Positions 10,250 through 51,771 of a DNA stretch of 64,000 nt are shown in pieces (the stretch's first letter is position 1; each line of letters opens with the position of its first letter). Position numbers and translations under genes: made by a program. The DNA is from Chara braunii. Lineage: Eukaryota > Plantae > Charophyceae. Location: the NCBI GenBank assembly GCA_003427395.1, contig BFEA01000031.1, positions 2,309,369 to 2,373,368 on the forward strand. Direction: 5' to 3'. The notes under the pieces were generated by a model that saw only the letters and a program-made list of their open reading frames with translations, did no database searches and was not told the origin of the DNA.

Positions 10250-10250
<1 letters not shown>

Positions 10251-24174: not shown

Positions 24175-24283
24175 TACCTTCTTCCCCCGAATACAACGTA
24201 CGGTCATTATAGCTGTATTTGAGGCATCTTTCAGTCCAGATACAGCTATAATGACCGTACGTTGTATTCGGGGGAACAAGGTA
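24175..24283. mobile_element. Hairpin MITE of about 110 bp, same family
   Basis: Near-perfect palindrome of about 45 bp per arm, flanked by TA. Confidence 0.85.
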
Positions 24284-25716
24284 CTCTTCCCCCTCCTCCT
24301 CCTCCTCTTCTTCTTCTTCTTCTTCTTCTTCTTAGTTGCGCGTTTCAAACTGAGAGCTGTACATGCGGAGAAGTAATGCATATATGTCGATGCTTGTACG
24401 AGAAGCAGTCTATGGCCACTGTTTTTCCACTGTTGTTCTTCTTCTTCTTCTTCTGCTGCTGCTGCTGCTGCTGGTGCTGCTGCTGCTGCTGGTGCCGGTG
24501 CTGCTGCTAGTGCTGGTGCTGCTGCTGGTACTGGTGCTGGTGCTCCTATCTCTCTTTGTCGCTGTTGTAATTGTTGTTGCTGCCGCTGCTGCTGTAACCC
24601 TTTGTTTTTGTTGCAGCTATTGTCGGTTGTTGTGGTTGTTCTCGTTGCTTCTTCTTCTTCTTCTTCTTCTACATCCGTGGCGGAAAGTTAGGTGGATGCG
24701 GGAGTGTGGTCGGCCCCTTGATGAGTGCTGGAGCGCAACCAGCCGAAACGCGTCGGGGAATGTGCGCGGTTTTTTGGATGTTTGCTCGTGATGGTGCTGT
24801 AACGACTTTCGTACGTGCATGAGCGCATAGCGTTGGCCTCGCTATCTCCTTCTTCTTCTTCTTCTCCTCCTCATCTTGCTTGCTTAATGGCACACTCGCA
24901 CTTTGGACTTTACCGAGTGTTAATCACGGCTAAACTCAGTGTACATACCACTAACGTTAGTAGGCGGTTGCTGCTGCTCTCCATACTATTGTTGCCTAAA
25001 GGCAACCTAACGGCATACTCGCACTTCGACCCACGATTACCGAATGGCGATGCCATTCATCACGATCGAGATGCGGATACACAGTCGGTGGTATGCCGCA
25101 GATACTACGCGTCAGCGCTTCCACCAGTAGTTCCCCATTCCAATTGGTTCAAAACAAGAACACAAAAAAAAGACGGAATTGTTGGATTTTTCAAGCCCAC
25201 GGTTTCTCCGTCATGCGCACGAAGATGCCACGAACCCCCTCCCCTCCCATTCTCACTTCCCCCCTTTCCCTCCTTCTCCTCCCCCCCGGCCGGGCACCCT
25301 TCACCTCCCTTACTATTTGCGCATCTTATCCGTGCGCACAAGACCGAATCTACAGCCTATGCCCATTCCCATTTAGTTGCCCGTGGCCAAGTCCCATTAG
25401 CAGGAGTTTGGTTTCGATTCCTGTAACGATGCGGCACGGTGCGGCGGGGGGTGGCACCGTGTGACACCATTTCGAAGCTGTTTTTAGGAATTCAGAAAAT
25501 TGTGTAGAAGGGTCCTGCACTGATGACAACATGCCAGGAGTTCCGGGAGTGCACGTCGTTGGGCGTTGCTCCACCTCACCAAATGTGGAAAATGAGAATG
25601 TATTTTACGCCTGTACATGGGAAAATACATCACCATAGTTTTTGCCTTTCGTGTGTGTGGTGAGAAGCGCCAAAGGCTGTAGAGTGGACGTCCACGCACA
25701 AAGCATGTGCGTGTGT

Positions 25717-26640: not shown

Positions 26641-26721
26641 GTGCCCTTCGGGACATCCGTTAAAATTTTGGAACGACATAGAGAAGATTAGTATGGCCCC
26701 TGCGCAAGGATGACACTCGTA
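26641..26721 (+). pseudogene. U6: 3'-truncated U6 copy
   Basis: GTGCCCTTCGGGACATCCGTTAAAATTTTGGAACGACATAGAGAAGATTAGTATGGCCCCTGCGCAAGGATGACAC followed by an A-rich tail. Confidence 0.9.
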
Positions 26722-28006
26722 GAAAAGAACAGACAAAAGGGCCACTAACCGAGCTGTATATTGCGCTAACGCCTTCACACCATTGTCCTCCATTGTCCTC
26801 CAGCCAAATCGCATAGCATTCCTCAAGCACATTGCACAGCGTTCGTCAATCACACCGCATAGCGCTATCCAATCACGTGACCGAATCGGCCCGACACGTG
26901 TCCTTCTGACTGCATTTTGGGCTGAAGAGTATGCTCAATTCCTTCACACCCACCCTATCTTCATCTCCTCGAGAAGTGACATGAACGGAGAGCATTCTAG
27001 GGGCGCATACGGAACGATTTTCGGTCCAGATACAGACATGATACCATGCTTTCCATGCAAGGTAAGTTAGACAGAGGTAGTACGCCTAATCAGTGTCTGC
27101 TTCATCGAGCAGCTGGACCGCTATGTATACGCCGGAGCACCTCGACCAATCGATCTTGAAACGAACCAAAAGTAGCAGAAGAAGAGGGAGTGAGAAAAGG
27201 GTAGAGAGAATGCAGGGAGAGGTTCTTCAGATTCATGACGACGAAGCAAAGCGAGGCGACGGCGCGCTGTGACCATGGCGGGACGTTGTTTCGCTCAAGA
27301 AGAGGGAGAGGCGCGGGCAATCCTACCTGGCTCTCCTCCACCGTACAACGAACGAATAAATGAAATGAATTGAAATGCAATGAATTATCAGTCCCTCCCT
27401 CGGAAAACCTTCCCGCCCATTCGACTACGCAGAGCTTCCGGGCTCGATTTCCCCGCGCTTCGCTTCAAACTCCTTCCCGCGTCGGACTTTTTTTGCGTCG
27501 GACTTCAAAAAAAGTCCGACCTCCTTCCCATCCCATCCCTCCCGCCGTTTTACTTCTGACTCCTTCCCGCCGTCCCTAATTGTGTGGTCGATCTTTGATC
27601 CCCTGATTTGACATTTGGAATTCGAAATTTTCAATTTTCAAATCAAATCCGTCCGTGGCACAGTGTCGCGCTCATCCGTCGTTGACATCAACGTTTACTG
27701 CACGGGGTAACAGCGAATTCCCACCTCATGCTTCTCCGCTGCAATACGATACGAAACTGTGTCCCCTATCGCCCTATCCCCCCTTGCTCTTCCCCCTCAC
27801 CGACGCCTTAGGTTGTCCACCAGGCCAAACGGAGGGCTGTAATCGCGCCGCGCGCGTTCATCGACGACCTTCCGAGATCCACCGGCACATTTCTACGTTC
27901 TTCTTTGGGGCGGTGACGGTGTTCGGTGGACCCAAGGCTACCACCAATTGTTTGTCTTTTTCCTTCTTTTTTTTTCTCGGTCTGCACCCCTGAATCCAGC
28001 GGCCCA

Positions 28007-28510: not shown

Positions 28511-28984
28511 TGCGCGAAGGTGCTTCTAACAGCCAAGAAAGTGGCACTTCTGACAGCCAAGAATGTGGCGCGGCCAAGAAAGTGGAAAAATAAGAAAGCC
28601 ACTCACCAAAGTCTCGCTACACTACCGTGGTCACCTAGACAAAAAAGAAAGGGGTTGTATTCGTCCATGGTCTAGTGGAAGATTCATTCGCATTTTGCAC
28701 ATTTTGCTGAGGAGTGGAGCAAGGGCCCAAGTAGGGGAAAGGAATGAAACTCAACCAAGAATATGGAAACGTACGTTGCTGCTTTACTTTTACCTTTTTG
28801 CCAAGGCTTCGAGTCCCCCAGCTGTGGTCCAGAACTGAACCTACTCAGCCTGGACCCGACCCTCTTGTGTAGGCAAAGTTGGTCTCGTTCACTCGAACAG
28901 AACGCATATGCGTTGTAAACGAATACAACGCACGATATGCGTTGTATTCGTTAACGCATATGCCTTATGTTCGGGGGAAGACGG
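28007..28984. mobile_element. Long member of the CCGTCTTCCCCCGA TIR family (Tc1/mariner/pogo-like, TA target)
   Basis: About 28-bp TIRs ccgtcttcccccgagcataacgcatatg / catatgccttatgttcgggggaagacgg-TA, with internal tattcgaa repeats. Confidence 0.7.
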
Positions 28985-29847: not shown

Positions 29848-32134
29848 TCAGTGTGTGTGTGTGTGTAGACAGTGCATCTGTGTGTGTCTACATAGTGTGT
29901 GTATGTGTGTAGACAGTGCAGTGTGCGTGTGTGTGCGAGTAAATAGTGTGTGTGTATGACTGTGTGTATGTGTGCTCACGTGCGCGTCACTCGTTGTGTT
30001 TGTGCGTGGATAGAATGTGTGTGTGTGTGTGTGGATGTCATTGTCACTGCAGCTGTTGCATCTGCTGGAACGGATGGTCCACATTCTGCTTCAGACGAAA
30101 CAACTGCAGTCGCTGCATGCGCAGCAGTTGCTGACTGCAGCAGCAGACCCTCCTGTGTGTGTGTGTGTGTGGATGTCGTTGACACTACAGCTGCTGCATT
30201 TGCCGGAGCGTATGGTCCACACGCTGTATCAGACGAAGCAGCTGCAGTCGCTGCATGTGCAGCAGCTCTAAACTGCAGCAGCAGGCCCTCCATTTCAACT
30301 CCCCAAGCAATCCACCCCCCCCAACACCAAACCATCACACCTGCCCAAGGATAAGTCGTGAGGCCTTTGCGGCACCCCTGTCTTTTAGGCAGTGGGTGAC
30401 CATAAGCAAGAGGCGTAGGCCCATCTCAAGGGGAAAACCCTTTTGTACTAGACCAGAGTCTGGGATGTCCTGGACAAGGACCTCGAATTTCAGACTCAGG
30501 ACCAACGTCCGACTAATAATTTAAAAAGCAAAACTCTTTTTGAGATGGGATTCGCCTGTCCCTCCCCTTAAGGAAGAAAATAAGAGTAGTCACGGGTTGG
30601 CGAGCAATTCGCCATACCCAGACTAAGTCTCAGTCCGAACAAAGGTCGAGCGCTAAACCTTGCACTCGTTTTCTCCTGGTTGCTCGCTCGATGCGTGTGG
30701 CAGGAGCAAAATGAGAAAAAGAAAAGGGCGAGTCTCGGGGGGAATCAGGGAGAACCATTCTCACAGCCATAGTTGAATCTTATCACTTCATTCATTCACC
30801 CATATCACCCTTAATTCAGGAGCGAGTCATCGCTCCCATACATACCTGCACAGACATGGAATCTAATGGAAATCCACACGCAGATGCCACAAAACGTGGT
30901 CAACTCCTTTGCTCCCAGGTTCATGTCCCACACGCCCCTTTTCGACCCCCACTCAACAAAGGCATATCCGCCCGTCCCGATTCACACAGCTTTTGCATGG
31001 CCATTCAAGAGAGGTTCCAAGGATAGGTTTTCTTTCATACGGAAATGCCTTTCGCCTACAGGGTCACATACATCTGGGCGTGGGTATCACAGTGGGTAGG
31101 AGTTGAGTCGCAAACCGACCTGCTATCAGTCCGATAACAGAAGTTGATGAAGCTCAAGACTTCGAAGAACACTCGCAGGTAACAATGACCTGCGTCACAA
31201 AATCAAGGCAGGCATCGTCTGTTGAATTAACGGAGTTCAACTCCGTATTGCACTTTAAGCTACTTAATAGTAGCATCCCGTAACGATGTGAAAATTCCAA
31301 AAATTTCGGCAGCACTTCCTTTAGGGAAGTGTGCTCGAAGAATATTTACTAAACCAAATCTAAAAATAAAAAGTCGCGACTATAAAAATCATCTGAAATT
31401 AAACTAACGCTTTGGTTTTAGTAAAAATTTGGGCAGCACTTCCTTTAGAAAGGAAGGCTTCCAGAATTTCTACTGTCCCCAAAGACTAAACTATACCATA
31501 TCCTAGCTTACATCTCAAAACCTTGGTTATCTTTAAGGATTTAGCAGAAATTTTGGCAGCATTTCCCCTAGGAAAAGAGCCTCCCAGAATTTTTATTAAT
31601 TCAAAGGCTAGCCAAAGTCCAATCAAAACAAACATACATGAAAAAGACAAATGTGAACACAAAAGTGAACATGTACCTGGCCATCGTTCAAGTATAAGGC
31701 GAGCACTAACAGACTACCCTATAATGTAGAAGACAAACAAAGCATTGAGCAAAAGACAAGGCATTGCCAACAAGTATGTCAAGTCGATAGCACATTCAAC
31801 CAATTCAAAACAAGGATTTGTTTATCCAAAGACTTTATCTTTCGTTTGTCCTGATCACGAAAACATTAGTCCCGTATTCTTACTTAGTTCATTAACTTCC
31901 CAAGTTGTTCTCAGTCAAACTCCATGCAATCACCAACACACTAGCCCGAACTATTCTCACAAGGAGAAGAGTCAGACCTTTTGTCAACAAGCAAAACTAA
32001 CTGACTCAGCAAAGCGACCGGATCGGTCAGAAGGACCTCATCTCCAGCCTCATTTCAATGTCTTAGGCAAGCAGCAAATCGACCGGATCGGTCAGGAGGA
32101 CCTCATCTCCAGCCCCTAATGTCTTAAGCAAACG

Positions 32135-33022
32135 GCAAAGCGGCAGGTCCTGACCCCGCCCCGTCTCAATGTCCAGGCAATCAGCAAAGCGGCAGGTCCT
32201 GACCCCGCCCCGTCTCAATGTCCAGGCAATCAGCAAAGCGGCAGGTCCTGACCCTGCCCCGTCTCAAAGTCCAGGCAATCAGCAAAGTGGCAGGTCTTGA
32301 CTCCACCCCGTCTCAATGTCCAGACAATCAGCGAAGCGGCAGGTCCTGACCCTGCCCCGTCTCAATGTCCAGGCAATCAGCAAAGCGGCAGGTCCTGACC
32401 CCGCCTCGTTTCAAAGTTCAGGCAATCAGCAAAGCGGCAGGNNNNNNNNNNNNNNNNNNNNNNNNNNNNNNNNNNNNNNNNNNNNNNNNNNNNNNNNNNN
32501 NNNNNNNNNNNNNNNNNNNNNNNNNNNNNNNNNNNNNNNNNNNNNNNNNNNNNNNNNNNNNNNNNNNNNNNNNNNNNNNNNNNNNNNNNNNNNNNNNNNN
32601 NNNNNNNNNNNNNNNNNNNNNNNNNNNNNNNNNNNNNNNNNNNNNNNNNNNNNNNNNNNNNNNNNNNNNNNNNNNNNNNNNNNNNNNNNNNNNNNNNNNN
32701 NNNNNNNNNNNNNNNNNNNNNNNNNNNNNNNNNNNNNNNNNNNNNNNNNNNNNNNNNNNNNNNNNNNNNNNNNNNNNNNNNNNNNNNNNNNNNNNNNNNN
32801 NNNNNNNNNNNNNNNNNNNNNNNNNNNNNNNNNNNNNNNNNNNNNNNNNNNNNNNNNNNNNNNNNNNNNNNNNNNNNNNNNNNNNNNNNNNNNNNNNNNN
32901 NNNNNNNNNNNNNNNNNNNNNNNNNNNGTCCTGACCCCGCCCCGTCTCAATGTCCAGACAATCAGCAAAGCGGAAGGTCCTGACCCCGCCCCGTCTCAAT
33001 GTCCAGACAATCAGCAAAGCGG
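32135..33022. repeat. 49-bp minisatellite spanning an N gap
   Basis: Unit gcaaagcggcaggtcctgaccccgccccgtctcaatgtccaggcaatca, period 49. Confidence 0.95.
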
Positions 33023-34239
33023 CTGGATCTGTCAGAAGACCTCATCTCTAGCCCCATTCAGATCATCGCATGCAAACATCGTGATTTTTACCACAGACAG
33101 ATGAGTTAACATCCATAGTAGATTACCATTTTTTGTTTAGTTAAAGTCCTGAAGGAAAAGAAAACAAACATATACATTAGTCAAAGTCAGAGAGATCAAA
33201 CACCAGGTTTGTATAAATAGAGGTTTATTGGGATAGCTAAAGGTATCGTGCCGACCTACCTCTGAGTTCCCTGCCTCCAGAGTCCCGCCTGGGCTCCGGC
33301 AGAGCTCCCGCAATCGGTGGGTCGACCTCCCACAAAGGCCTTGATGCGGTCCTACGGGTTGCAATCCCGCCTGCCGCCTTCCTCCCTGAACATAGACTAG
33401 ACTGAGAGGAAGAAGGAAAGAAAAAGATAGATTAGACGCTCGAGGTACGAGAAGGGGCCAACTCAACTCACACGAGAGGGCCTTGGTGCCTTCAGATCCT
33501 GAGGGCCCCGCAATGGCGGCCAATCACATAGTACCTTGAAGTTGGTAGCGCCAGAAACCGCAACTACCTCACAACTCCATCAGTACTAGTAGCAATCCCC
33601 CTTTAACTCTTTGATGATAGCTGTAGCACTGGACTTTTCCAACAACAACCTTTAACCCTACAGGTTGAGCCTTGGAGCAATCGCTGAGACAACTGCTTTC
33701 ACGTTCACGGCACGAGCAACAGTCCAAATATAGTTGGAAGAGCCCACTCAGTAGGCCACACCTGACGCAAGCAAAGTAGCGGCCGTCCTCAACAACATCT
33801 TGTCCTCATCAGCAGCAAAGGCCTCAACAATGGTGGCTTTAACTATTGTTCAGTACATGAACTGATGAAATAACGGTCAATCAACAGACTCTGAAGGCAA
33901 ACAAATGTTTGTTCATCAGCAACATCGGTTTTCTGGGCAGGTAGCAGCATCCTGCAAGATATGGTTCCTCATCTCTTGAAAAATGTGACCCGAAGCAGCA
34001 CCAAGACACAGGCCATGCTGCAGGTTCCGCCCAAAATTTTGAACCCTCATCATAGCAGAAACGCAGGGTGCGGCACGAGGTGATCAATTGTAAGGCCCGC
34101 TCAATGAAGCACGTCCGTTCTCCCCTCCTCTATCCTTCTCTCTTTGGCAGTCTTTGCTACTTTGGATGCTTCACGTGACATTTTCTCATCACGTGTGCAA
34201 AAATAAGAATGAACTTCCCGTTACAGCGTGAAAAATCAA

Positions 34240-34280
<41 letters not shown>

Positions 34281-34677
34281 GCGGCCCCCTAGCATATGAA
34301 TATGCCTTATTGTTCTCACGACCAGGTTCATTAAAGGCCACAAAGACGATGACTTTAGACCAGAAGAGGATCGCGGCATCAATCCCACTGGCAATGGCTC
34401 AATGAACACTTCGAGCGTGATGGAGAGCTCGATTACGAAGATTACCACCTTGTAAATCTTGCCACAATGAGGACGACGAAGACACGCTGATGGTAATCAC
34501 GATGGTTGAGCCGAGGCGTGCAATCATGGGCAGCACCCCATTATTCACCAAAACGCTCAATATTGAGGATAAATCTTCCACTTAATCATGATAGATATAT
34601 CGTGAGATTGCAATGCAAGGTAAATATCTCTCGTCCTCTATCTCTCTCTGCCGCCTCAGACTCGTGAACGCACCTGG

Positions 34678-35015
34678 CCAACAAGTAAGTCTTCAACCCA
34701 CAACTGTCTCCACTCTACTTCTATCGACCGTAGGTCCGTAGGTGCAGCGCTCCTTCCAACAGGTAAGTCTTCACCCACAGCTGTCCTCATACTACTTCCA
34801 TCAACCGTAGATCCGTAGGTGCAGCGCTCCTTCCAACACGTAAGTCTCCACCCACAACTGTCCTCATACCACTTCCATCAACCGTAGATCCGTAGGTGCA
34901 GCGCTCCTTCCAACAGGTAAGTCTCCACCCACAACTGTCCTCATACTACTTCCATCAACCGTGGATCCGTAGGTGCAGCGCTCCTTCCAACAGGTAAGTC
35001 TCCACCGACAGCTGT
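34678..35015. repeat. Tandem repeat of about 77 bp, about 4.3 copies
   Basis: ccgtaggtgcagcgctccttccaacaggtaagtc..ctacttccatcaa repeated. Confidence 0.9.
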
Positions 35016-36299
35016 CGAAGGTGATGCCGCTGTCGCTATCCCGCTGTCGATGAAGGTAGCCGCGGTCCGTCCTGGTCAATGGAGATGGCCTCAATTTCGC
35101 TGGTGAGGACGATGATTCGTTCGATGATGAAGGCTTGGCTCAACATCCCTCTCTCTCTCTCTCCGCCCATCTACCTCACCGTTACGCCCACTCTCATTTG
35201 CACAAGAGACTAATGTGAATGAATCTACCATTAGAAAATGGAAAGATTCATTTTCATATTTGAAAACTCCCCTCGCAGCTTTTTTTGTCCGTACCGCCAA
35301 AACCACTGCACCAAACCCGGTTCTGTCATGACCACTAGATTCAGAATATAGTAAAACCCGTAGTTAGCATCTTTTCTCGCTCGTTTTGGTTAAGAAACGA
35401 GCGAGATATGCACTTGTTTTCATTTCCCACCTTTTCTCTCCCATTAGTTCAACTATTCTACGCATGCAATTTTTCTTCAATCTCCTAATCCACTACCCCT
35501 TTGCCCAATCTAATTGCAGATTCGAATTCGCCTTTCCCTAAAACCTCTATTTCGCTTCTTCCCGCGTCTGATTCCGTTAAGAGTAGAGTAGGCTTTGGAT
35601 TTTCCCCCTAGGCCATACCCATTTCCTTCCTCTGTCGTTGTCACTTTCCCGTCTCCTTCATCTTCGTGTATGTGGACCTGATCCCGGCCAGGTTCACTCG
35701 TCTTCCTTTACTTTCTCTATCTCTCCCTTCACTCACCTTCACCATTGCCTTACCACTCTCTTCTCTCACCAACCTCGCTCCCTCCTTCGCCTTGTTTCTG
35801 TCTTCTCCTTGTTTCCCCCGACGCATTTCTTTCCTCCGTTAGACTCTTAGCGCAGCCTAGTGCAACTCTTGTCCGACAGCGCCGTATTCAGCCACCGTGA
35901 GAGTAATTTCAAAGAGGGCCAGCCAACAACTGGCTCGAAAATGTCTGGCGTCCCTATTCTCAAATCCGAGGAACGATTTGCACGTTCGTAGGAGGGAACC
36001 CTGCTACTATTCAGTTTGACAGTCTTTTGCCCTTGTGTCCGAGTCCGAACGAACAATTTCCACTTCAAGACGCTGTCAGCCTTAGTCCAAGAATCCTCTG
36101 GCTGTGCCTGGCCCAGGCACAGTTCACTATCTCTGGGGTCCACGGGCCTGTCCACACTCAGGTCCCCACTGGTTGTGCCTTACCTAGGCACAGTCTACCA
36201 TTCCTTCGGGCCCCAAATGGGCCTGCTCATACTCAAACCTCTGCTGGTCGTGCCTCGCCCAGGCACAGTTCCCTGTTTCTTGGGTCCCACGGGCCTGCA

Positions 36300-36372
36300 C
36301 TGTGGCTGTGTGAGCAGGGGCTGCACAAGCCTTCCCCTTATCGTACTAATTTTAATGGTTGTCCCAAAGGAC
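36300..36372 (-). pseudogene. Highly diverged U6-derived 5' segment fused to tandem repeats
   Basis: GTCCTTTGGGACAACCATTAAAATTAGTACGATAAGGGGAAGGCTTGTGCAGCCCCTGC aligns to roughly U6 nt 1-60. Confidence 0.65.
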
Positions 36373-36529
36373 AAAAGCGGGGCGGAGCCCCGCTGCACCG
36401 CCCAATAGCTGAGTGGTCTTAGGTGACTCAAGTAGGAGCGTCCTGCATATCTGCGTCCGACAAAATTTCAACTTGGGCCTGTATTTCATCAGCTCTTGGG
36501 TATACTAACTGAGCTTAGGTAGGTGCTCA

Positions 36530-37040
36530 GCCCACAGGACTGTTTTTCAACAGTCTGCGGGAGTACCGACCTGAGCTAGGCCCAGTGGCACTATTCCCGC
36601 AGACCTGTTTTTCAACAGTTCGCAGGTGTACCACCTGAGTCAGGTCTACGGGTGCTGGTCCCATAGGCCTGTTTTTCAACAGCCTGCGAGTGTACCAGTC
36701 GAGCTTGGCCTACGGGTGCTGTTCCCACAGGCCTGTTTTTCAACAGCCTGCGAGTGTACCAGCTGAGACAATGGCACTGTTCCCACATACTGTTTTTCAA
36801 CAGTCCGTGGCTGTACCACCTGAACTAGATCTGCAACTGTTGTTCCCCCAGGCCTATTCACAACAGTTCGTGGGTGTTCCAACTGCGCTAGGCCGTGGTG
36901 CTGGTCCCAAAGGCCTATTCTCTCAGCAGTTCGAGGGTGTACCAACTGAGCTCGGCCCAGTGGCANCTGTCCCACAGGCCTGTTTTCAACAGCCTGCGGT
37001 GTACCAACTGAGCTTGGCCTACAGGTGCTGGTCCCAGCAA
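36530..37040. repeat. Degenerate tandem repeat of about 62 bp, about 8 copies
   Basis: cctgtttttcaacagcctgcgagtgtacca..gagct.ggcc..ggtgctg.tccca.agg repeated. Confidence 0.85.
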
Positions 37041-40000
37041 NCTATGATGGCNGNCACCCTACCTCTATTAAGGAAGGTGTCGACGCAGTTGTTATCTATC
37101 CCCGTCTTGGTGGGGATACTCAACTCACGTTCGTCCGCTCCTTGCTCAGCAAGCTCAAGCACTCTTTAGTTTTCTTTTTGAAGTTATTTTCGGTACTTCT
37201 TCGCTGTCGGTCCCGGAGCCAGTTTTCGGCCTCGTCAATGGACCGAAAAACGAAGAAAAGTAAAAATAAAAATAAAAATAAATTAACAAAATAAAAAATA
37301 AAAATAATAAAGTTGAAGAGGACGAGGATCTACCAACGCCCTCTTGGTCTTGCCAGTCGAACCCAGGTTTGGGCTCGTCCGGTAAAACCAAGGGGGATAG
37401 TCACTTAAGACCCTCGACCCCTTAGTCTCCGCCTGTCGCGCTTTTTTGCTCCATCGCCTCTAGCTGACCTTGAACTCTAAACGTGCCGCTTGAACGTCAA
37501 GTACTGTAACCAACAGGGCTAAGCCCAAGCCTGAGTTAGGTAGGCGCGACCTTACATATGAATAGTTATAGGACCCTAATTGGTCCTACCTGCACAAACC
37601 AGGCCTTCGCCTTGGCCTATCGGCCAACCTCCTAGCCGTCAGAAAATGCCGAGACGTCGTCCGCTCCTAGGATCGTAGCTACTTGGTATCTTGGTCGTCG
37701 GGCGCTCGACATATTTTCGTCAAACTTTCGACTTTCCCTCATACTAGGTTTGCCAACGCCACGCCTTTCGACGCGTCGTCCAACATAAACTTTCCGCGTA
37801 TGCGCAAGGTAAAGTTTTATCCTCTTCACGCCGTGTCCCATCAGAGACCGAACCAGTTAGCGATATCAAGCTGGTCTCTATAAAATAAAAAAATATATAT
37901 AATAAAAAAGAAAAATTATAGAGAACGTAGGTGGACCCTATGGCTTTGGCGTCTTCCGCCGTCCTGTTATTGCCGACCAACAAACATCTCACAACGCAAC
38001 GCAATAATGCGTGCCCCACTCACTCTCTCTCTAGCCACATTCGATTCGGAGTTTCGCCAAGAGCGAGGCTGCCGAGATAAGCGCCCTGACGCGATTTACC
38101 TCATCGGCGTATTTCATTGATCAAGGACGCACCCAGTGCGACCTTTAAAAAGGATGGCAAATACCCTTGTAAGAGTGTTTGCTACGACAACAGGTTGTAG
38201 GGATTTTAAATTCCTACAACCCCATTTTTTTTTTTGAAACTGATAAGTTTTTGTCATTATAAAAAATAAAAAACAGAAAAGACGGAGCAGAAAAATTAAA
38301 AAATAAATTTAAAAAAACGTTTTTTTTGGGGGGGGGGGATTTCTGGTTGGTAGTTCTTTGTATTCTTCGTTTTTACGATTTTTTTTATTTATTTTTTTTG
38401 TCCTAAGGAAACAATCAAGAAATGAAAAAAATATATATGGTTTTTTTTTTCCGGGGCCTTTTAATATTTGTGTGTGAACACGTGTGTGTGTGTGTGTGTN
38501 NNNNNNNNNNNNNNNNNNNNNNNNNNNNNNNNNNNNNNNNNNNNNNNNNNNNNNNNNNNNNNNNNNNNNNNNNNNNNNNNNNNNNNNNNNNNNNNNNNNN
38601 NNNNNNNNNNNNNNNNNNNNNNNNNNNNNNNNNNNNNNNNNNNNNNNNNNNNNNNNNNNNNNNNNNNNNNNNNNNNNNNNNNNNNNNNNNNNNNNNNNNN
38701 NNNNNNNNNNNNNNNNNNNNNNNNNNNNNNNNNNNNNNNNNNNNGTAACACAACCGTCCCACGTAATGTGGGAAACAGGACAGAACCCAAGAGTATCCAT
38801 TAGTGCATAGCTTATTTTTAGCCATGGATGACATACGTTACGCAGGTAGTAGAGGTTAGGGGTCATAGCTAACAAAGGAGTAAAAATTAGTATGTTAGTG
38901 TTAGTATGTTAGTGTTAGTATGTTAGGGGTTAGGAGAGGGCAAGAAGCCCAACCGTAGGGGGGGTGCACGCCCTAAAGCGCGCTTTTCGCCGCTTAGCAC
39001 CCATAGCAGCTCATCAGAGGGATTAGAATTAGTAAAGGCTTCTGTTAGTATTCGGGGTGGGGGATGGGGGATAGGTAAGCAAGGAGTCATAGGTTCCAAG
39101 GTAGAACAGAATTACGTGTTTTAGCGAGTTCGTACCTGGGCTGTCATGGCTGGTGTCACTGCAGAGTCAGTCCCCGCCATCGCACGAAAATTGTAGCGTA
39201 GCATGGTATCAAAAGGCTTACGTCGTAAGCGGATTGCCCAAGACACCGTAATACGCCAGACTGTTCCTATGCACCAGGATCAGTACTTGATCAGAACTGC
39301 TCAAGTAGGGAAGATGTGGATGGAGAGGCGTCATGCAACATGAAGCAGAGTGCCGGTGTTGATGGTATGGCAAGTAGCAAGGAGTATAAGTAGCGAAGTT
39401 GTGTGTGCCATTTACGGCGTGATCGCTGGTAGCGCTGTGCATGCCATGGGTGCTTTGCGTGGTTGGTAAATTCGTGGGGTATTATTAAGGGGTAATTACT
39501 GGGGTAGGGAAGAGCGTAGGGTGTGTGGTTTAAACACATTGTTGGTGATTGGGGTGGGAGAGCGGGTAAGCTAGTATGGAGATAGCAGAGAGCGGGATGG
39601 GAGAAAAACTGGTCAGGAAGAAGGAAGTTTTCTTACGTAATTTGCTGGCGGGGTTGGGGTTGACGATGTATGTTATGTGAGCAGGCAAGGTCAGGTTGAC
39701 GATGCTTTTTGTTTATTGTCTTGTAGTGCTTGGGGTTATTTGGTGGGAGACAGGCTATGGTGGTGCCGTGCCGTGTTGCAGGTGTGCTTGTCCTGTAGTG
39801 ACGTTCCGAGGTGGTGCGTCACATGAAGGTATGCTCGAACTTTGAGAGGGGGGAACGAAGCGGGGAACTTACTAGGGGCATGCTTGTTATGAGGTTCGAA
39901 TAGGTTGAAGGCCACCGTGTAGTGGGGAGCTTTGCTTCGTAGGAAAAAAATTGGATATACTATGGTTGTGCCGGCGTTGTTGTAGCTGTATACTTCATGG

Positions 40001-40301
40001 ATTTAATGTCATCGTATGCAGTTTGTTTCGTAGTGCATAAGAGTTGGGTATTTTCCGTCGTAAGTGGCTATGGCGGTAATCGTTTTTTGTCCTACCTAAT
40101 TTTCTTTCCTCGTGCGTGTGTTTGTATTCTTGTGTGTCAGTCGCGCCGTTTCAGGATGGCCGTGACATATGAGAAAATAAGGTTTTTGCTATTTTAAAAA
40201 AAAAAAATTGTATTTTGTTTTTACGTTTGCTATTATTTTTCTAACTTTACATTTTTATCAATAGGAAGCTGGTGACCCATTTTTCTAACTTAACATTTTC
40301 T

Positions 40302-40338
<37 letters not shown>

Positions 40339-40604
40339 CCCTTCCCCCCCCAACCCCCCCCCCCCCCCCAAAAAAATGTTTTTTTTTTTTTCTTTTTTTT
40401 TTTAGGGGGTGGGGCTGGGGTTTCGCCGCCCCATGGCACTTCCCAAATCCCAAACCCCCCTCCCCACTGGCCGCCATGCAACCGCAAAGTCGCGCGGCCG
40501 CGGAAGAATACGTACTTTCACCAAAACCCTAAGTTATTTTCACTTAAGTAGTTCATCGTCTTTCAGTTAGATAAACCCTAATACCCTAACTTACATATGA
40601 CATA

Positions 40605-41232
40605 AGAAGGTCAAGCCAAACCGAAGCCACATTTCTTAACCTTTTGCCTTTGTATACACAAAATAAAGAGCGCAACTACTTCTCTCTTCATTAGGCAGTT
40701 AACTAAATCAAACCGAAGCCACATTGTCTAGTCCTGTCAAATGTGTGATATCCAAATTTATAATAATTATCTGAACCTTTTAATCTTTTGAAGACTAAAA
40801 TAGTCACCCAGCCAAACCGAAGTCACATTGCGCAGTCCGCTTTTTTATTACACTCATTATATTCTTAATTGAGTATTATCTTCTCCTTTTGTGATAAGCC
40901 ATAGTCAGACCAAACCGAAGTCACATTGTCTAGCTAACTTGTTCAATAATAAAAGTATAATACATATATTAAAAAAATCATATTATCCGGTTTCTCGTTC
41001 TATGCGCGACCTCAGATTAAGTCAAACCGAAGTCACATTGCTTGGTCTTCTGTTCAAACCTCCCTCAGAAAGACACAAGTAACATCAACCAGACCTCACC
41101 GAAGCCACATTGCCTAGCTGCTTAAATAACAACTTAAAGGGGTACAACAATCAGACCTAACTGAAACCATATTGTCTAATTGCTAAGGAAACAAACAATA
41201 TTTTGGTCAACCGAAGCCACATGGCTTGGCTG
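40605..41232 (-). repeat. Array of 8 conserved motif copies, most forming hairpins, with unique spacers
   Basis: Core AACCGAAG(C/T)CACATT (plus strand, some copies variant) at 40619, 40711, 40815, 40913, 41025, 41097, 41159 and 41209, most with complementary variable arms. Confidence 0.85.
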
Positions 41233-42780
41233 TAGAGAAAACATAAATAAACAAAGGAGACCCAATTAACGCAGGCAAAACCACATTCCTCCCACCTTCC
41301 CCCAATTCATCCCTCTTCAATCCGAGTTTCAAGCAACAATACAGAGTGAAATTCATACATACTTTTCTTTTATCTCACGTGATTAAGTTCCAAAATGAAA
41401 TAGTAAAACATAAGATTGTATGCACATACTACAGCCAAACTAGCGAGATGTAATAAACAAGTGTTCAAAGGGTTAACATAAGACAAAAAAAAGTTTACCT
41501 AACTGTTCCCTACCTCCAGAACTCCTCCTGAGTTCCCTCAGAGCTCCCACAATCGGTGGATGGACCTCCCACAAGGTCTTGTTGTGGTCTTGTGGATTAC
41601 AATTCCACGTGCCGCCTTCCTCCCACAACCATAAATTAGACTTAAACTGAGGTGTTGCAAATGCTCGGGATACAAGTATTAGAGTGGGACAAACTCAACT
41701 CACGTGAGAGAGCCTTGATGCCTTCGATCGTCCAAGGGGCCCGCAATGATGGCAATAAATGTAGTGAACTGGCCAATCCGTTGCCAGGATGCAGAGTGAC
41801 AACCTCCTCACGATTTTTCAAATCGCAGTAATGACCCCCTCGTCGGGCCCGATCACCTCCTTCACAACTACAGTACCTCCCTTCAAAACAATCCTGTCGT
41901 TGTACATCCCATAAGGGTCACGTTTAAATAGTGTACACCTCCTGTGCTTTATTTAAACCGCAAGTAAAACACACCGATTTGCAGTAGCGAAGTGTGTTCA
42001 ACAACCATATACAGGTAAAGTTCAGAAGCACTCAACAAAGTACAACAAACAATACTTGCCCAATCTACTCCTCGAAACCATGAGATTAGTACGCTTCAAA
42101 ACATCAGCCTGCTTCTACGTAGCCTACAAAGGCTGCTCCTGAATAGAGTTACACCTTTGTGCCCTTTTCACGTTGCAGTCTAATTGTAGCGACTCATCGA
42201 AACTCCGCGTTTGGCCATCATGCGGGGCAGTCCGGTACCTGTGACAGCGCACAACACCCGATCATAGTCGCTATCAAACTGCACCTGACTATATGCAATA
42301 TAATATACAACAAAACGCGCAGCTACCACACCAAAATGTAGTAATGCGCAGTGCAAAGCATAATTATGCGCAATAACAAGTCACGACAAAACAGTGGTAC
42401 ATAGTGGTGCTCAACAACCTGCACCATAACCAAGCTTAACAACACTGAAAAGCAAGGCAATTACTTCTTAATTGGTAACCTATTTCACCTACTGCAGTAG
42501 CGCCACCGGCGTCGACACCCAGGCAATGGCAACAATTGAAGTTGGAGGACTGCAATAGCTCCTCCCCAAGTCAACCACGGTAACATGAGATAGTATCCCT
42601 GGGCCTTAACAATAGCAACTTAATTAAAACCGACCCAAATAACCGCATCGGGACGAGACTGTAGCAGCAACATCCGTAGTGCAGATATTTCAAGCTTGGG
42701 AGTACTTCATCAATGAGCCCCGTGAACCTATAATCAATCAATCCTTGCTATGTCTTGACTTGGCTTCTGCTGGCTAATCA

Positions 42781-43530
42781 TCCAATAGTCCCTCTAAGGA
42801 GCTGGCCACGAGGAAAGGTTCCCACGTAGCTAACTTTCGTTGGCTAGTCCTCCAACAATCCCTCTAAGAGGTTGACCACGAGGACAGGTTCCTGCGTAGC
42901 TAACCTCCGTTGGCTAGTTGTCCAACAATCCTTCTAAGAACCTGACCACGAGGAAAGGTTCCCTCGTAGCTAACCTTCGTTGGCTAGTTGTCCAACAGTT
43001 CTTCTAAGAAGCTGACCACGATGAAAGGTCCCCACGTAGCTATTTAGCAGGTCGAGGTCCCCACGTAGCTATTTAGCAGGTCGAGGTCACGTAGCTATTT
43101 AGCTAACTTCCGTTAACGAAATTAGCCAGAGAAATTAGACCCCACCATCTAAGAACGACCATGCACTACCACCGATAGAATCAAGAAAGAGTTACAATTT
43201 GTCAATCTCCGCTTCAACCATATTGCCTGCACACTGAAGTTGTTAGATGCAAATGTCATTAAGCGCGCTGGCGAGAGAGATAGCAAGAGGCTACTTCCAT
43301 CGTTAGGATGAGAAAAATCAGGACGAATATTCCTCTAAAATCTAGAAATATACATTGCATTCCAACTATGCACGCAGAGAGATAGAGAAAGGTTACTTCC
43401 ATCGTTAGGATGAGCAAAATCGAAATCGAACTTCCTCTAAAATATGAAAATATACATTGATTTCCAGCTATGCATGCAGAAAGATAGAAAGAGGCTACTT
43501 CCATCGTTAAGATGGGTAAAATTGAAATGA
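42781..43530. repeat. Tandem repeats inside element B (70-bp x4, about 30-bp x3, about 102-bp x3)
   Basis: tccaa..ctctaag..gaccacgaggaaaggttcc..cgtagctaacc at 42781, 42851, 42921 and 42991. gagatag..ggctacttccatcgttaggatgag occurs three times. Confidence 0.85.
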
Positions 43531-44630
43531 ATCTTCTGCCACAATGCAGGAAAATTGAAGTTCTCCGCGGCCTCGTGCAAAGGCCGCGCGACAGCAACCC
43601 CTCCACCTGGTAATCCTCTCTTTCTCTCTCTAGCTCAAGCTCTTCATCAGGCAAACACACTACTTATCCTAGTGGAGACAGATCAACACTATACAGAAGA
43701 CTCACCACAATGAGTCTCTGTAAGCGGCACTGTGTGAAAATGAAGACAACCTCCACCAAGTCAATCAAGATCGTAATGGAGGTGCGCACAATGAGTTCGG
43801 CTTCACTGCATATGGAGATGGCGTCCGCAATAACCCACACCCTTTAGACCAAGAAGCGACCACGATGACACCCATGTTGAAATCAAGATTGCCACTCTAC
43901 TAGTTAAATGTGGAAAAATGAAAATGAATCTTCCACTAGAATATGGTAAGATTCATTTTTATATTTTTGTATTCTCCTCCTCACTACGTTTACTGCATGC
44001 ACTAGAAAAAACACTAACCTAGAGCTAAATACTAACAATACCATCGCCTCCCCAGTATCCCAGAACCTCTACCTACCACCTTATCGTGCTCGATTAATTG
44101 AGAATTTAGTGATATCCTTGTTTTCCACTTCTGCCATGTCCATTTTCACGCACCTTCTTTTACCTTTTCACAAAAACTAACACTTTACCGCTATATCTGA
44201 CACCGCCGTTCAACTTGTAATGTTCCCAAACCCCTTTTTAGCATCCTTGTCTGCCTGCTTTCATCGAGAAACGGACAAGATATGTAAACTTGTCCTTCGT
44301 GTTAGATAGACTAACATTATGTTTTCTTCTCTAAAAAACACAACTTTATAAGTCTTAATTTTTAAGTTTTTATAAGTCGTTAACGAGTGATAATTATGAA
44401 ATAGTTATGTCTTAAAAGTAATGGTTTTAATTAACATGTATGATTAAATGAGATAATAATTTTTTTATATGTCCATGACTTTCGTTATTGTTTGTAGTCG
44501 GTGAAAAATGTCATCTCACGTTTATCAAAACAACAATTGCATTTTTTGTTTTATTTTTTCCTCAGCCTCACGAGGTTCAATTTTTATCGATGTCGTTTGC
44601 ATAATTTATGATTGGATGTATAGTTATCAG

Positions 44631-45910
44631 CGGGGTTGCTGGCGTTCGGGACGGGCCGAACACCCGAACCCGAACGCCCGAACGTTTGGGACCCCCTCTC
44701 GATGCGTTCGGACGTTCGGCCAAACGCGGAACCAAAAAAAAAAAAAAAAAAAAACTAGGTTACCAATGGTCCGGAGACCGAACGTCTCCACCTGACATCT
44801 CCCCCGGACATCTCCCCCCCCCGTCGCCCGGATTTCCAGACGACGCCTTTTTGGCACAAAAAAAAAAAATAAAAAAATAAAAAAAATTATGACAGTGTTG
44901 CGCATGGCCTAGAGACCCCCCACAAAAAATTTCAGATTTTTCTGAGCATTTGCTGACAGGGTGGTATTTTGGGGGGGAGGGGGGGGTAGAAGGGGTTTTG
45001 GTGGGGATAGGAGGGGTATAGATGGGGAATGAATCTTTAAACATTTTTATTATTTATTCTACTGGCCCAAATAATCCAAAAATTTGGTGGCATACACCTA
45101 ATGCAAGGTGGAAGCCACATGATTTTTTTTTTTTTTTTTTTTTTTCTGCGCTAGGTCGAACATACCCTGTCCGGTCCGACGTCCGACCAGACGTCAGGTC
45201 GGACATCCCGAACAGTCAGGGGGGTCCCGGACGTCCGGCCCGGTAACCTAGAAAAAAACAAAACAAAAAGTTTCCAAAAATTCTGAAAAAACAATATGTC
45301 ATGCAGAAAAATAAAGTAAACAACATTTGCCCCAACAGTACATCCAAATTCCTTACCAAATTTGAAATAAAAATCAAATACGAAAAATAAATAATATTAA
45401 TAAAAATAAGAAAAAATAAAACGAGAATGAAATTATTGCGTGGGCAAGCAAATTTTTGACACCGCCATCTTTGGCGATTTTTCATTTTGTTTTGGATTTG
45501 TCAAATGCCATGAAATTTTATACATATGTATCTTACATAATAGAGAACCTACAAATAAAGTTTGAAAAAATAATAATGTTTTTCAGGCCCCGAAAGAAAG
45601 GGAAAACAAAAAGTGAAAAGAGCAAAAAAACAAATTAGTAAGTGGGAAAACAAGTTTTGACACCACCATCTTTGCCAATTTTTCATTATTGTTTGGCTCC
45701 ACATAAGGACTTCAAAATTGAGATACAGGTAGCTTACATAACAGAGAACTCACAAAAAAATAATCAGAAAAAAATAATAATGTTTAGGTACCAAAATATT
45801 TTTTTGCGGGGTCCGAACACCTTCAAGTTCGGGCCCCGTACGGGGACCCGAACGCCCGAACGTTCGGGGGTCAGCTTAGGGGCCTCCGTACGTTCGGCCT
45901 GGCAACTCTG
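44631..45910. mobile_element. Non-autonomous hAT element
   Basis: Exact 8-bp TSD gttatcag (44623, 45911). TIRs CGGGGTTGCTGG / CTGGCAACTCTG. Subterminal ccgaac repeats. Confidence 0.85.
44755..45251. mobile_element. TIR element nested in the poly(A) tract of the hAT (related partial copy at 29437-29735)
   Basis: CTAGGTTACC...GGTAACCTAG termini flanked by A tracts. Confidence 0.7.
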
Positions 45911-47636
45911 GTTATCAGTATGGCTCGACGATTATGTTGCCTAACAGATAACGGTAGGAAATAAAAGTATAAAGTCACACTTTCTTACTTATCATACTAA
46001 TCTGACGAGGGTGTTGCTCTTAACACTTCGAATTCGTATTAATAGCGAAGTCACATATAATTGCACGATGTACTTACTGCAAAAAACTTTGATGCTATTC
46101 ACATATAACGTTGTTGTGCATGTAACTAAACTCACTGTTATACAAAATTCACTTGTAGATTACACAAAACAAAAGTGACTGGTTCTCGTTTTAAAATATT
46201 GGTTTGTGATGTGCTACGTTGTCCTTTTCATGTCTACTTTGAAATATGCCTTGGTTATTACATTGAGATATTTTTCTCATCCCTTATCTCCCTTCTACCG
46301 CTGCTCAGATAATCAGTGGTGGGTAACCACGCATGCACAAAACCACGTTGCATAACCATACTGGGCACCCAAACAATACGTTCCTTTATCTGTCTTTACT
46401 ACACAAGGTGCTTTCTTAAGTTGACGTCCATTGAACCCTGAATTCAACAATCTCTCAAGTTCACAAAAAACATTTTGATGATTGAATTTGCAAATCGAAC
46501 TTCATACAGATGAAGTGTTTTAATAATGCTTTATCCTAAAAGTTGACAAATATACTAACTAATGAATCAAACAAACTTTACTTGTTTTGCGTATGTCTCC
46601 CTGCTTCCTTTAATTCTACCTTCAATGCCTTGTTAATGAGTTATAGGGAAAACTTGCTCGTTCTCTCCATGACGAATATCATGTTTATAAAACTTGGATG
46701 CACTCCAACCTAAAAGTCAAGCATAAGTTCTCAAAGAAGTTTTAGATGAATGGGCGTACAATTTCAGGTTCATGTAGGTGAAAAGGTCTACAAATCAAAG
46801 TCCATATATGCAAAATGTTTTAATGATACTTCACGGTCCTCACCCGCAACAATCACAATCATATGAAAATGGTGAATTGGCCCGACCAGGGTTATTTAAA
46901 CACTACGCTTGCTATACCAATTTCTCCCTTCTCTAGTCTGGTCCCTGTCTATCTTGCCTCTGGGGGATTATAACCTCACACACTTTTTTTTATTTTCTAT
47001 TTTTATTTTTTAGTGGAAGACTGGACCTATTGGTGGCGAGCAACACCTGTTGGAAATCGGGTCCCGCATCCAAGTAAAATACAAGGATGATAGAATTTGT
47101 TGTGGTCAAAATTTGTTGTCTAGGTTTGGGCTTAGTCTACGGAATCCCTCCCCATGTTATCCGAGTCCTCTATTACTCCACGTCATGGTTCTCACTTTCT
47201 CTGCCTTGGTTGTCGCTTTCGCTCAAAATGCCCTTTCCTTATTGTGTCTAGGTGTGCTTCTCCTCGCCTTCATCCTGCTCGACTGCAAAACTTTCCTTCC
47301 AAAAATATGAACTATTGCTCTTTGAATGGCCCTACCTTCCACACCATAAGATAAATGCCCTCCCTACCTTCCACGCCGCAGAATGGCGTCCCGGGGGGCA
47401 CAAAGGGAAAACAACAACTTGCAAATTCATTGCCCGCTGTTCGCCAGCACAAAGGGCCTTGCCGCATAGCACACGGCGCAGAACAGTACATCTGCCCGGA
47501 GTATGTGGCGAAATACATTCGCAAATGAACGAATCATACCATTCTCTGTGGGAAGACGCACTCACTTCTTTTGAGTTTCATGTGCCATGCAGCGAGACCC
47601 AGATTCTGCACCTCCAGTGTTTTTTATTTTTATTTT

Positions 47637-50060: not shown

Positions 50061-50196
50061 GTGGTCGATTCGACTGGATTGATTTGCTACACAGCACAGC
50101 CTGATTGGATTCGCTGACGGGTGAGGTGAAACGGGCTGAGGTAGAACGGTTTACGTTTGAAATCATTGGCTAGCGTCAGGTGGTTGAACTCGCTGG

Positions 50197-51771
50197 ATGG
50201 CGGGAAGTAGCACTCGTGAGGAGGGTGGTATCTCTCACGAGGAGGAGATTAAAGTGATGACCCAGAGGAGTATTCCTAGGACCGCTGTTCGCGGGAAGAC
50301 TATGGCACCAGAGTGTCTCCCATCGCAGTCCTTGAAGAACGGAGGCGGTGTCGCTCGAAAGTTCTCATTGACTCTCCCTTCTTTACATGAGGACGATGAT
50401 TATAACAAGGAAGAGGAGGTCGGTGAGGAGAACGATGAGTATAACCTGGACTTCCTATTCAACGGTGGCGGCGTCTCTCGCATTGAGGAGAGCGAAATGG
50501 TGACTCAGAGGAGTTGTCCGAGCAGCGCAGTTGGCGGGAAGACCATGGACGCAGAGTGTCTGCACTCCCAGTCCTTGGGAAACGGAGCCGCCGCTCGAAA
50601 GCTTTCCTTGACCCTCCCTTCTTTAGATGAGGAGGAGGGTTATAACGACGACTCGGAAGAGCATGAGTCAGACATAGACTACGGTTTGGAGTCGTTCTTT
50701 GAAGTTGTGACGTTTCCGAGTCTCATGTGGAACAGTCGTTTTGGTGACACTGATGATGTTGAAGCTAGAGAGGAGGAGAACGATGAGGAGATTGACGAGT
50801 ATAACCTGGGCTTTCTCTTCAACGGTAGCGTGGAGGAAATGGACTTCCTCGTGAACTGTAGCATGGAGCGAGGGAGAACGCCTTCCACTGAGCATCAACC
50901 CAAATATGACTCTGAGGACGAGGAAGAGGAGAATCTGGAGGAGGCCGATCGGAGTGATGGACAGAGTGCACCAGGCATCGCCGGATGTACGAGTGATTCT
51001 TCCGAGAGAAATTCATCTTCGGCGAGTGATTCTTCCGAGAGAAACTCATCTTCTGAGGGAGATATGAGAAGGAGAGACGAGAGAAATGAACCCTACGACG
51101 TCGATGAGAGTTCTGATTCTTCTGAACAAGCCATCGCATCCGTCTTGCGCCTCCGTTCCGCTGCCCTCCCTCCCGTTTCACCGCAAGGGAAAATGCAGCA
51201 GCCACGAAAAGCGCGAGTTAGGAGCCATCATGCCGCTTGTCGCAGCGGTCTCGGTACTCCCGAGAGTTTTGCGCAGCCTGAGTTGTCCGCGACCAACGGC
51301 GGTGACAACGGCTTGCGGTCATCGGTTCCCGGTAAATTAAGGCGTAATGGAGGAGCAGGAGGGGTGTGGGAGGCTTGCATGAAACCTCCGCCTTCTCCTC
51401 AGACCCCTCTTGATCTCTTCCCGGACACAGAGGAGGGTGTTCCTTCTCCGAGCGGTGTGAAAGCGCTCAATTCTCGGCCTGCTGGCCCAGGCTTGTCGTT
51501 TGGTGACGATACTGACCGCCGAGTCAACGAGCGGCGTCTGTCTCCCTACCCCAAGTCAACTCCGTTCGATTCTGTGGCGTATGTGGCGCTGTTGATGGGA
51601 AGTTCGGATTACTACAAAGGTGTGGTGGCCGTTGTCAAGAGCCTGAGAGCAGTGGGGAGTCGTGTGAAACTGATCGTGGCCGTCAGATCGGATGTTCCTG
51701 AAGCGCATCGGGAGATACTGAAGGAGCATGGCTGCGATATCAGAGAAGTCGAGATCATCGAGTCTCCCAGG
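50197..51771 (+). CDS. GolS: Galactinol synthase-like GT8, exon 1 (long acidic N-terminal extension plus GT8 start)
   Basis: ATG at 50197, 525 codons open. The end reads AYVALLMGSSDYYKGVVAVVKSLRAVGSRVKLIVAV..DVPEAHREILKEHGCDIREVE, matching the GolS AYVTFLAG..DYVKGVVGLAKGLR..DVPE.HR.IL..QGC.VREIE block. Donor AGG|GTGAGA, phase 0. Confidence 0.85.

What the first reader, a model, noticed from the sequence alone, without database searches (positions are those of the whole stretch)
33140..41757. Two diverged elements share the C-terminal exons of an unknown spliced gene upstream of the hairpin arrays
Seen: 33140-33525 and 41380-41757 are homologous only in exon-like blocks and splice signals on the minus strand. 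Both have donor GTGAGTTGAG and a second donor (GTAGGT/GTAAAC), with two introns of about 80-110 nt. Spliced copy A reads ..EGTKALS-WRKAAGGIATRRTASRPLWEVDPPIAGALPEPRRDSGGRELR-GL*. Copy B reads ..EGIKALS-RRKAARGIVIHKTTTR(frameshift)LWEVHPPIVGALRELRRSSGGREQL-GT* with degraded acceptors. Several substitutions are synonymous and the stop position is the same. Both also share an upstream hairpin AATGAATCT.CCA.TAGAA.ATGG.AAGATTCATT and CTACTTCCATC-containing tandem repeats. Inference: a mobile family encoding a small basic protein whose 3' region carries structured repeats, possibly a protein plus cognate RNA array module. It is reminiscent of accessory ORF and tandem-repeat regions of Tat/Ogre retrotransposons.
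Basis: partly seen in the sequence, partly recalled or inferred. Interest (0 to 1): 0.7.

Follow-up and report, generated by a model that had tools for sequence, protein, structure and literature searches.

The report
Conserved folded RNA in algal retrotransposon
The two look-alike stretches are copies of a very abundant repeat, likely part of a jumping gene of the alga Chara, whose shared core is conserved letter by letter and in paired hairpin stems rather than as a protein, so it is likely a folded RNA signal that would help the element's RNA pair up and be packaged, not the tail of a new spliced gene.

Summary
The homology is real, but the protein reading fails. With two more copies from metagenome contigs (L001, L003) and reads, no single frame survives. 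The copies differ by 1-nt indels, substitutions fall evenly on the codon positions (8/8/9; read variants 6/6/5), four-fold sites are nearly invariant, and upstream homology stops within about 100 nt. No splice joint appeared among 1,252 laid RNA reads, and reads run on into the 'introns'. The minus strand folds into hairpins and two helices joining the 'exons', with 7 of 53 pairs changed on both sides and a self-complementary loop. Overall folding stability is unremarkable. Read depth suggests thousands of copies, and two of three polyA runs are strongly minus-strand. The only real protein hit is a Chara braunii gag-RT gene model that uses the block on pol's strand. Best reading: a structured cis-acting RNA in a Chara Ty3/Gypsy element, probably in its long LTR, likely a dimerization or packaging signal (inferred). 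The scan had no look-alike of this block, but noted a same-loop hairpin array like the one beside it in L001.

The parts
33472..33519 (-).
33385..33471 (-).
   Evidence: RNA loose ends read through it
33260..33384 (-).
41704..41752 (-). Copy B, block 1
41623..41703 (-). Copy B, variable spacer (81 nt)
41499..41622 (-). Copy B, conserved core; GT donor-like site follows at 41498
31290..33022 (-). Copy A, downstream arrays: 49-bp units (32128-33022, with an N gap), 65-bp pair (32007-32114), 124-bp units (31290-31595); multi-copy in the genome
40608..41243 (-). Copy B, downstream same-loop hairpin array of 8 units with variable spacers; 7 of 8 units fold better on the minus strand
34678..35016 (-). 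Copy A, upstream 77-bp tandem repeats (4.4 copies) with ACTTCCATC; promoter or enhancer role inferred
42771..43536 (-). Copy B, upstream 70-bp and 102-bp tandem repeats, the latter with ACTTCCATC
35218..35252 (.). Copy A, upstream AT-rich inverted repeat; 35050-35261 aligns to B 43740-43966 (z 15)
43923..43957 (.). Copy B, upstream AT-rich inverted repeat

Best explanation
The shared blocks are copies of a very abundant repeat that are conserved at the nucleotide level and carry stems changed in matched pairs, and they likely form a non-coding, folded cis-acting RNA domain of a Chara Ty3/Gypsy retrotransposon, probably within its long terminal repeat, that would act as a dimerization and packaging signal. 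Shown: nucleotide-level conservation without codon bias, paired changes in local stems, high copy depth, and minus-strand excess of polyA reads in two runs. Inferred: the host is Chara (named protein hit and scan notes); the element is a Ty3/Gypsy LTR element and the minus strand is its sense (one gene model); the upstream hairpin and tandem repeats are its promoter; the self-complementary TTGCAA loop lets two genomic RNAs kiss; and the downstream same-loop hairpins are Gag docking sites. The splice-like motifs may be used in a minor or younger-copy isoform. The helix closing the spacer would hold them in the unspliced RNA.
For: Against coding: spacing between conserved motifs differs by 1 nt among copies (64/63/64/64; 50/49/49/49; 14/14/15/15), so the invariant TGTGGG stretch is read in different frames. 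Four-fold sites differ at 0-1 of 7-9 per pair, while nonsynonymous codons outnumber synonymous ones in 6 of 6 pairs. The 17 listed core variants from reads fall 6/6/5 on codon positions. One-base indels are frequent in reads. No protein similarity extends more than about 30-40 codons upstream of block 1 among the four copies. For structure: 95.7% of cells pair and 7 of 53 pairs change on both sides, with 0 of 500 shuffles reaching this. Read consensus adds a two-pair swap in the TGTGGG hairpin, GACTC/GAGTC against GACCT/AGGTC in B. The minus-strand consensus folds at -55.7 against -41.9 on plus. The loop palindrome is kept in 3 of 4 copies and B has a G-U-compatible form. All 8 L001 array units and 7 of 8 B units fold better on minus. 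Element link: summed contig depth is about 42,000-46,000 at 33337-33339 against 12-28 at low-copy sites. The hit P0002, Chara braunii GBG87673.1 with RVT_1 and RT_RNaseH, carries the core's 3' half after RNase H on the same strand. Expression: X5 shows 85 against 5 and X7 173 against 1 first mates on plus in the peak bins, meaning minus-strand RNA if the library is of the usual stranded type.
Against: The block is not unusually stable: single copies give z -0.05 to +1.3, the cores give z -0.2 to -1.7, and the alignment gives z -1.9 on both strands. The structure was derived from the same four sequences it was scored on, and relatedness inflates the shuffle test. By my inspection 2 of the 7 double changes are CpG decay on both sides, and template-switch repair can also perfect DNA hairpins. 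The long-range helices have only one double change between them. X6 shows both strands about equally. No LTR termini, PBS or pol were established in the window, and exact 5-bp TSD matches were no more than chance. The strand and position relative to pol rest on one ab initio model that may join nested elements. The second GT donor sits exactly at the edge of conservation in 3 of 3 copies and in read consensus, which a pure packaging signal does not explain. Nothing tests dimerization or packaging.
Confidence: 0.55

Rival explanations
1. The core is the short middle exon of a spliced, non-coding, LTR-contained transcript like those described in maize. Its edges are kept by splice signals and its folding serves the spliced RNA or splice-site choice. 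This is compatible with the element assignment above but gives a different function.
For: The GT donor at the core's 3' edge is present in 3 of 3 copies and in loose-end consensus of X1, X5, X6 and X10. A pyrimidine tract plus AG|TCTA is present in 4 of 4 copies. PolyA reads are minus-strand in X5 and X7. Loose ends before 33265 in X5 (14 reads) and X7 (22 reads) lack the donor, at only 0.5 agreement, and could be spliced. Maize LTR transcripts often have three exons with a short middle exon, and splicing falls with LTR age (bioRxiv 10.64898/2026.05.08.723830, section 5 read).
Against: There were 0 read joints among 138, 857 and 257 laid reads. Consensus loose ends behind 33384-33416 continue through the AG into the pyrimidine tract. 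Donor 1 is GC in 2 of 4 copies and acceptor 2 is absent in 2 of 3. Caveat: a joint needs both sides 80% like copy A in 101-nt reads, and only 6-13% of each run was read.
Confidence: 0.2
2. One reading: C-terminal exons of a small accessory protein of the element, now decayed in all copies seen.
For: Donor 2 is phase 1 in all copies, and the last 20 or so codons (PPIAGAL to GREL) are open in A, B, L001, the part held in L003, and P0002. By inspection block 1 shows several third-position differences in the AAIAGP frame.
Against: No frame is common to the whole core, there is no codon bias, four-fold sites are conserved and there is no upstream protein homology. Family consensus keeps a TAG in the best alternative frame in X1 and X7. 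There was no Pfam match above cut-off among the 115 ORFs from 30-44.5 kb. Only one real hit came from 1.84 billion representatives, and it is a chimeric RT model. No spliced reads were seen.
Confidence: 0.12
3. The conservation acts at the DNA level (promoter-proximal protein-binding sites or a recombination cassette spread among families), and the paired changes are by-products of CpG decay and template-switch repair of inverted repeats.
For: Folding z-scores are near zero. The motifs ATTGCGGG and CAAGGCC each occur in both blocks. Some double changes are CpG-type.
Against: G-U-type one-sided changes favour the minus strand, as expected of RNA. The spacer between the blocks is 30-58% diverged against 6-29% in the blocks, so recent transfer of the whole stretch is not enough. 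The block is transcribed with strand bias in two runs.
Confidence: 0.13

Closest known systems
Retroviral DIS/SD/Psi region and Ty1 PAL1/PAL2 dimerization signals (PMC10483063 and PMC6844567; passages read)
   Same: A hairpin with a 6-nt palindrome in its apical loop, a nearby GTGAGT splice-donor motif, and a cluster of hairpins in retroelement RNA.
   Different: No sequence relationship was tested or expected. The donor motif lies 5' of the palindromic hairpin. No PBS or gag start was located near the block, and the position may be inside the LTR. In Ty1 the cited paper could not confirm kissing-loop initiation.
Spliced non-coding LTR-contained transcripts of maize LTR retrotransposons (bioRxiv 10.64898/2026.05.08.723830; section 5 and passages read)
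   Same: A short conserved exon-like block with splice signals and no ORF in an LTR element, in polyA RNA.
   Different: Maize LTR introns average 1,303 bp against 63-110 nt here. Splicing was not seen here. The parts read describe no conserved RNA fold.
Retand/Tat and Ogre POL-3'LTR regions with tandem arrays and antisense TRP28 ORFs (PMC11963269; first of five parts and passages read)
   Same: Family-specific tandem arrays in a Gypsy element.
   Different: No ORF or TRP28 (PF04195) match was found, and the block appears sense to pol. The paper finds recently active Retand elements only in eudicots and monocots among chromosome-level assemblies.
U1 snRNA (RF00003)
   Same: By eye, a similar order of stem-loops and an ATTGCA loop (recalled lead).
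   Different: No Rfam match, and no similarity above shuffles to 10 real animal-type U1 sequences with or without the spacer.

Membership tests
Spliced accessory protein gene | One reading frame kept across copies | tested here: not met
   motif spacings differ by 1 nt among four copies; indels in reads
Spliced accessory protein gene | Synonymous or third-position bias | tested here: not met
   8/8/9 and 6/6/5; four-fold sites 0-1 of 7-9 differ
Spliced accessory protein gene | Junction-spanning reads | tested here: inconclusive
   0 joints in 1,252 laid reads and unspliced loose ends; sensitivity limited by divergence and partial reading of runs
Ty3/Gypsy LTR retrotransposon | Linked gag-pol with RT and RNase H | tested here: inconclusive
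   no RT domain among the ORFs scanned; link only through gene model P0002
Ty3/Gypsy LTR retrotransposon | Paired LTRs with TG..CA ends, TSD, PBS and PPT | tested here: inconclusive
   one candidate 37434-44202 with an exact 5-bp TSD, but exact matches did not exceed chance; no genome held
Ty3/Gypsy LTR retrotransposon | High dispersed copy number | tested here: met
   depth contrast (not a true copy number); further copies L001 and L003
Retand/Tat antisense aORF | Antisense ORF with TRP28 or similar domain between pol and 3' LTR | tested here: not met
   no such domain; P0002 places the block on pol's strand
Retroviral-type DIS/packaging signal | Palindrome in the apical loop of a conserved hairpin | tested here: met
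   TTGCAA in A, L001 and L003, TTGTAA in B; stem with 2 double changes
Retroviral-type DIS/packaging signal | Position near the 5' end of genomic RNA, close to the PBS | tested here: inconclusive
   no PBS located
Retroviral-type DIS/packaging signal | RNA dimerization and Gag binding depend on it | not testable with these tools
   needs bench assay
U1 snRNA or other Rfam family | Match to a covariance model or sequence similarity | tested here: not met
   Chara's own U1 was not available

The most novel reading that the evidence does not exclude
Chara Gypsy elements of otherwise unalignable families share one ancient multi-branched RNA domain of about 230 nt. In it a helix between the two 'exons' clamps a short intron-like spacer next to a kissing-loop hairpin, so that one fold would choose between splicing to an LTR non-coding RNA and dimerizing for packaging. 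That would be a retrovirus-like DIS/splice switch in an algal retrotransposon LTR.
Probability: 0.15. Interest if true: 0.7.

Novelty: new variant of a known kind. Interest (0 to 1): 0.38.

Why it matters
The paper on Ty1 says little is known of how LTR-retrotransposon RNA dimerizes and is packaged (PMC6844567, abstract). A short element conserved across divergent families and probably thousands of copies gives a concrete, easily tested candidate in a streptophyte alga, with enough natural variation for a rigorous covariation map. It also warns that such blocks look like exons and are picked up by gene predictors, as in GBG87673.1. It is not a new protein-RNA system.

Tried and rejected
No whole genome is held, so genome-wide BLAST, termini and dN/dS on many copies were not possible. 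Homolog searches with A's and B's core peptides alone found nothing; the profile found only P0002. The representative search gave 3 hits, of which P0001 (tapeworm Fn3 repeats) and P0003 (nematode repeats) are repeat-inflated chance matches and were dropped. ESM Atlas gave no usable hit. Pfam on 121 ORFs gave only the GT8 gene above cut-off. A 29-letter pattern found nothing in viral or metagenome contigs. A 21-letter pattern found 0 viral and 3 metagenome loci, of which L002 is a chance match in a bacterial-like gene and was dropped. The run search listed no RNA holder, which is no evidence either way. The U1 snRNA idea was tested and rejected. A tRNA anticodon-arm resemblance was rejected: ARAGORN found 0 genes. 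The own covariance model found no third copy in the window. TSD searches were not above chance. The N-terminal AAIAGP match in P0002 is weak (E 0.059) and is used only as a hint. Rfam did not confirm the short rRNA-like piece used as a strand check. Paper searches (listings only) showed no description of this element; subscription papers, including the Chara genome paper, may be missing from the library, and bioRxiv supplements were not seen.
Full report
Setting. The window is eukaryotic, repeat-rich DNA with a glycosyltransferase-8 gene and U6 and U2 copies. No genome is held. The only real protein hit of the finding's sequence is a Chara braunii gene model, and scan notes from this genome also name Chara (unchecked), so I take the host to be Chara; this is inferred.

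Observation. A (33260-33519) and B (41499-41752) share two blocks on the minus strand: the core is 78% identical and block 1 is 75%, with flanks unalignable. Homology also covers 35050-35261 against 43740-43966 (z 15). The stretch between the upstream repeats and block 1 does not align (z 1.5).

A large family. Laying DNA contigs at 80% likeness gave a summed depth of about 42,000-46,000 at 33337-33339 and a bin mean of 184,456, against 12-28 at low-copy sites nearby. The tool warns that this is no copy number, but the contrast implies thousands of copies. A pattern scan returned 3 loci, of which L001 and L003 are real copies (70-78% identical to A and B over about 260 nt in three of four comparisons, and over 143 nt for L001 against B) and L002 is a chance match. 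L001 has, just downstream, eight hairpins with one invariant 6-nt loop, and a short stretch matching B's array region.

The protein reading fails. Between A and B substitutions fall 8/9/9, 9/9/9 and 8/8/9 on codon positions in the three minus frames. Seventeen core positions among the 40 variant rows shown for RNA reads (90 more were not shown) fall 6/6/5. Distances between conserved motifs differ by one base among the four copies, so the invariant TGTGGG is read as W-E-V in one copy and C-G-R in others. In the best-kept 3' frame four-fold sites differ at 0-1 of 7-9 per pair, while nonsynonymous codons exceed synonymous ones in all six pairs, although the spacer is 30-58% diverged. No protein similarity reaches far upstream of block 1. 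Searches gave one real hit, P0002, a gag-RT-RNase H model that appends the core's 3' half as an exon. That shows a predictor's choice, not a protein.

Splicing is not shown. Donor 1 is GT in A and B but GC in L001 and L003. Donor 2 is present in 3 of 3 copies, and acceptor 2 in 1 of 3. Among 138, 857 and 257 laid reads no joint was listed, and the consensus of loose ends runs on into intron-like sequence on both sides. Six joints in X10 contigs bridge the spacer with unknown letters between, so they are uninformative. Two low-agreement loose-end groups at the 3' edge (14 and 22 reads) lack the donor and could be spliced. Detection needs both sides 80% like A, and only 6-13% of each run was read, so minor splicing is not excluded.

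Structure. The four-copy consensus folds better on the minus strand (-55.7 against -41.9). It has a hairpin with loop ATTGCAA, a TGTGGG-loop hairpin, a terminal hairpin, and two long-range helices joining block 1 to the core, one of which closes the spacer. Of 53 pairs, 7 change on both sides and 95.7% of cells pair; 0 of 500 shuffles reach this. Read consensus shows a further two-pair swap in the TGTGGG hairpin. Against this, the structure was derived from the same sequences, 2 of the 7 double changes look like CpG decay, the long-range helices have one double change, and overall stability is not above shuffles. The downstream arrays also fold preferentially on the minus strand. No Rfam family matches, and a U1 resemblance did not survive testing.

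Expression and orientation. In X5 and X7 first mates lie almost only on the plus strand over the core (85 against 5 and 173 against 1 in peak bins), while X6 is balanced. A short piece at 35952-35985 attracts reads that I recognise from memory as large-subunit rRNA, with first mates opposite the rRNA strand (333 against 8 in X6). This fits the usual library type and hence minus-strand RNA, but Rfam did not confirm the piece. P0002 puts the block on pol's strand downstream of RNase H, with a weak block-1-like match upstream of gag (E 0.059), as an LTR location would give. An unreviewed scan note places a same-loop array like L001's in a long LTR (e1-10641911). I could not fix termini: one TG..CA pair with an exact 5-bp duplication spans B (37434-44202), but such matches are at chance level.

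Mechanism. The most likely reading is a cis-acting RNA domain in the sense transcript of a Chara Gypsy element, downstream of a repeat-rich promoter and upstream of hairpin arrays. By analogy with retroviral DIS hairpins and Ty1 palindromes (PMC10483063, PMC6844567, passages read) the palindromic loop would start dimerization and the arrays would bind Gag. That step is inference only. The main rival is a short middle exon of a spliced non-coding LTR RNA as in maize (bioRxiv 10.64898/2026.05.08.723830, section 5 read), and the two may coexist.

Verdict. The feature is real, the protein is not supported, and the element is an apparently undescribed structured RNA of a known general kind. My paper searches found no description, within an incomplete library. 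Interest 0.38.

Noticed in passing
window 36090-37130 (-): A third set of hairpin arrays (64-bp units, minus-strand z -7.7; 71-75-bp units) preceded by a third GTGAGTTGAG at 37128, without the conserved core; well covered by RNA reads at 36767-36960.
   Followed up: partly
window 38745-40166: Solo-LTR-like segment starting after an N gap with GTAACAC and ending GTGACA, inserted between the two copies.
   Followed up: no
window 37434-44202: TG..CA ends with identical 5-bp flanks enclosing copy B and nested insertions; possible solo LTR, not above chance.
   Followed up: partly
window 28640-28730, 25559-25643, 53763-53825: Single arms of the upstream hairpin motif in other repeats and orientations, suggesting a shared promoter or terminal motif.
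   Followed up: partly
window 10246-10350, 26641-26744, 22180-22373: Two U6 and one U2 snRNA copies above Rfam gathering score, probably pseudogenes.
   Followed up: no
window 50188-63312 (+): Spliced glycosyltransferase family 8 gene, galactinol-synthase-like by recalled motif, with a long acidic N-terminal ORF.
   Followed up: no
window 35952-35985: A 34-nt stretch that attracts abundant reads resembling large-subunit rRNA (recalled), with four differences; chance likeness or a captured fragment.
   Followed up: partly
window 12530-12640, 16937-17045, 24174-24283, 53146-53234, 53368-53489: A family of about 110-bp palindromic elements, MITE-like.
   Followed up: no
window 33266-33519 (-): The motifs ATTGCGGG and CAAGGCC each occur once in block 1 and once in the core, in mirrored order.
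   Followed up: no
L013-L016, L026, L029-L031, L057-L059 and others: Several prokaryotic MAG contigs match the U1 pattern, some in tandem arrays; Rfam confirmed U1 in 12 of 20 loci checked, which points to eukaryotic contamination.
   Followed up: partly
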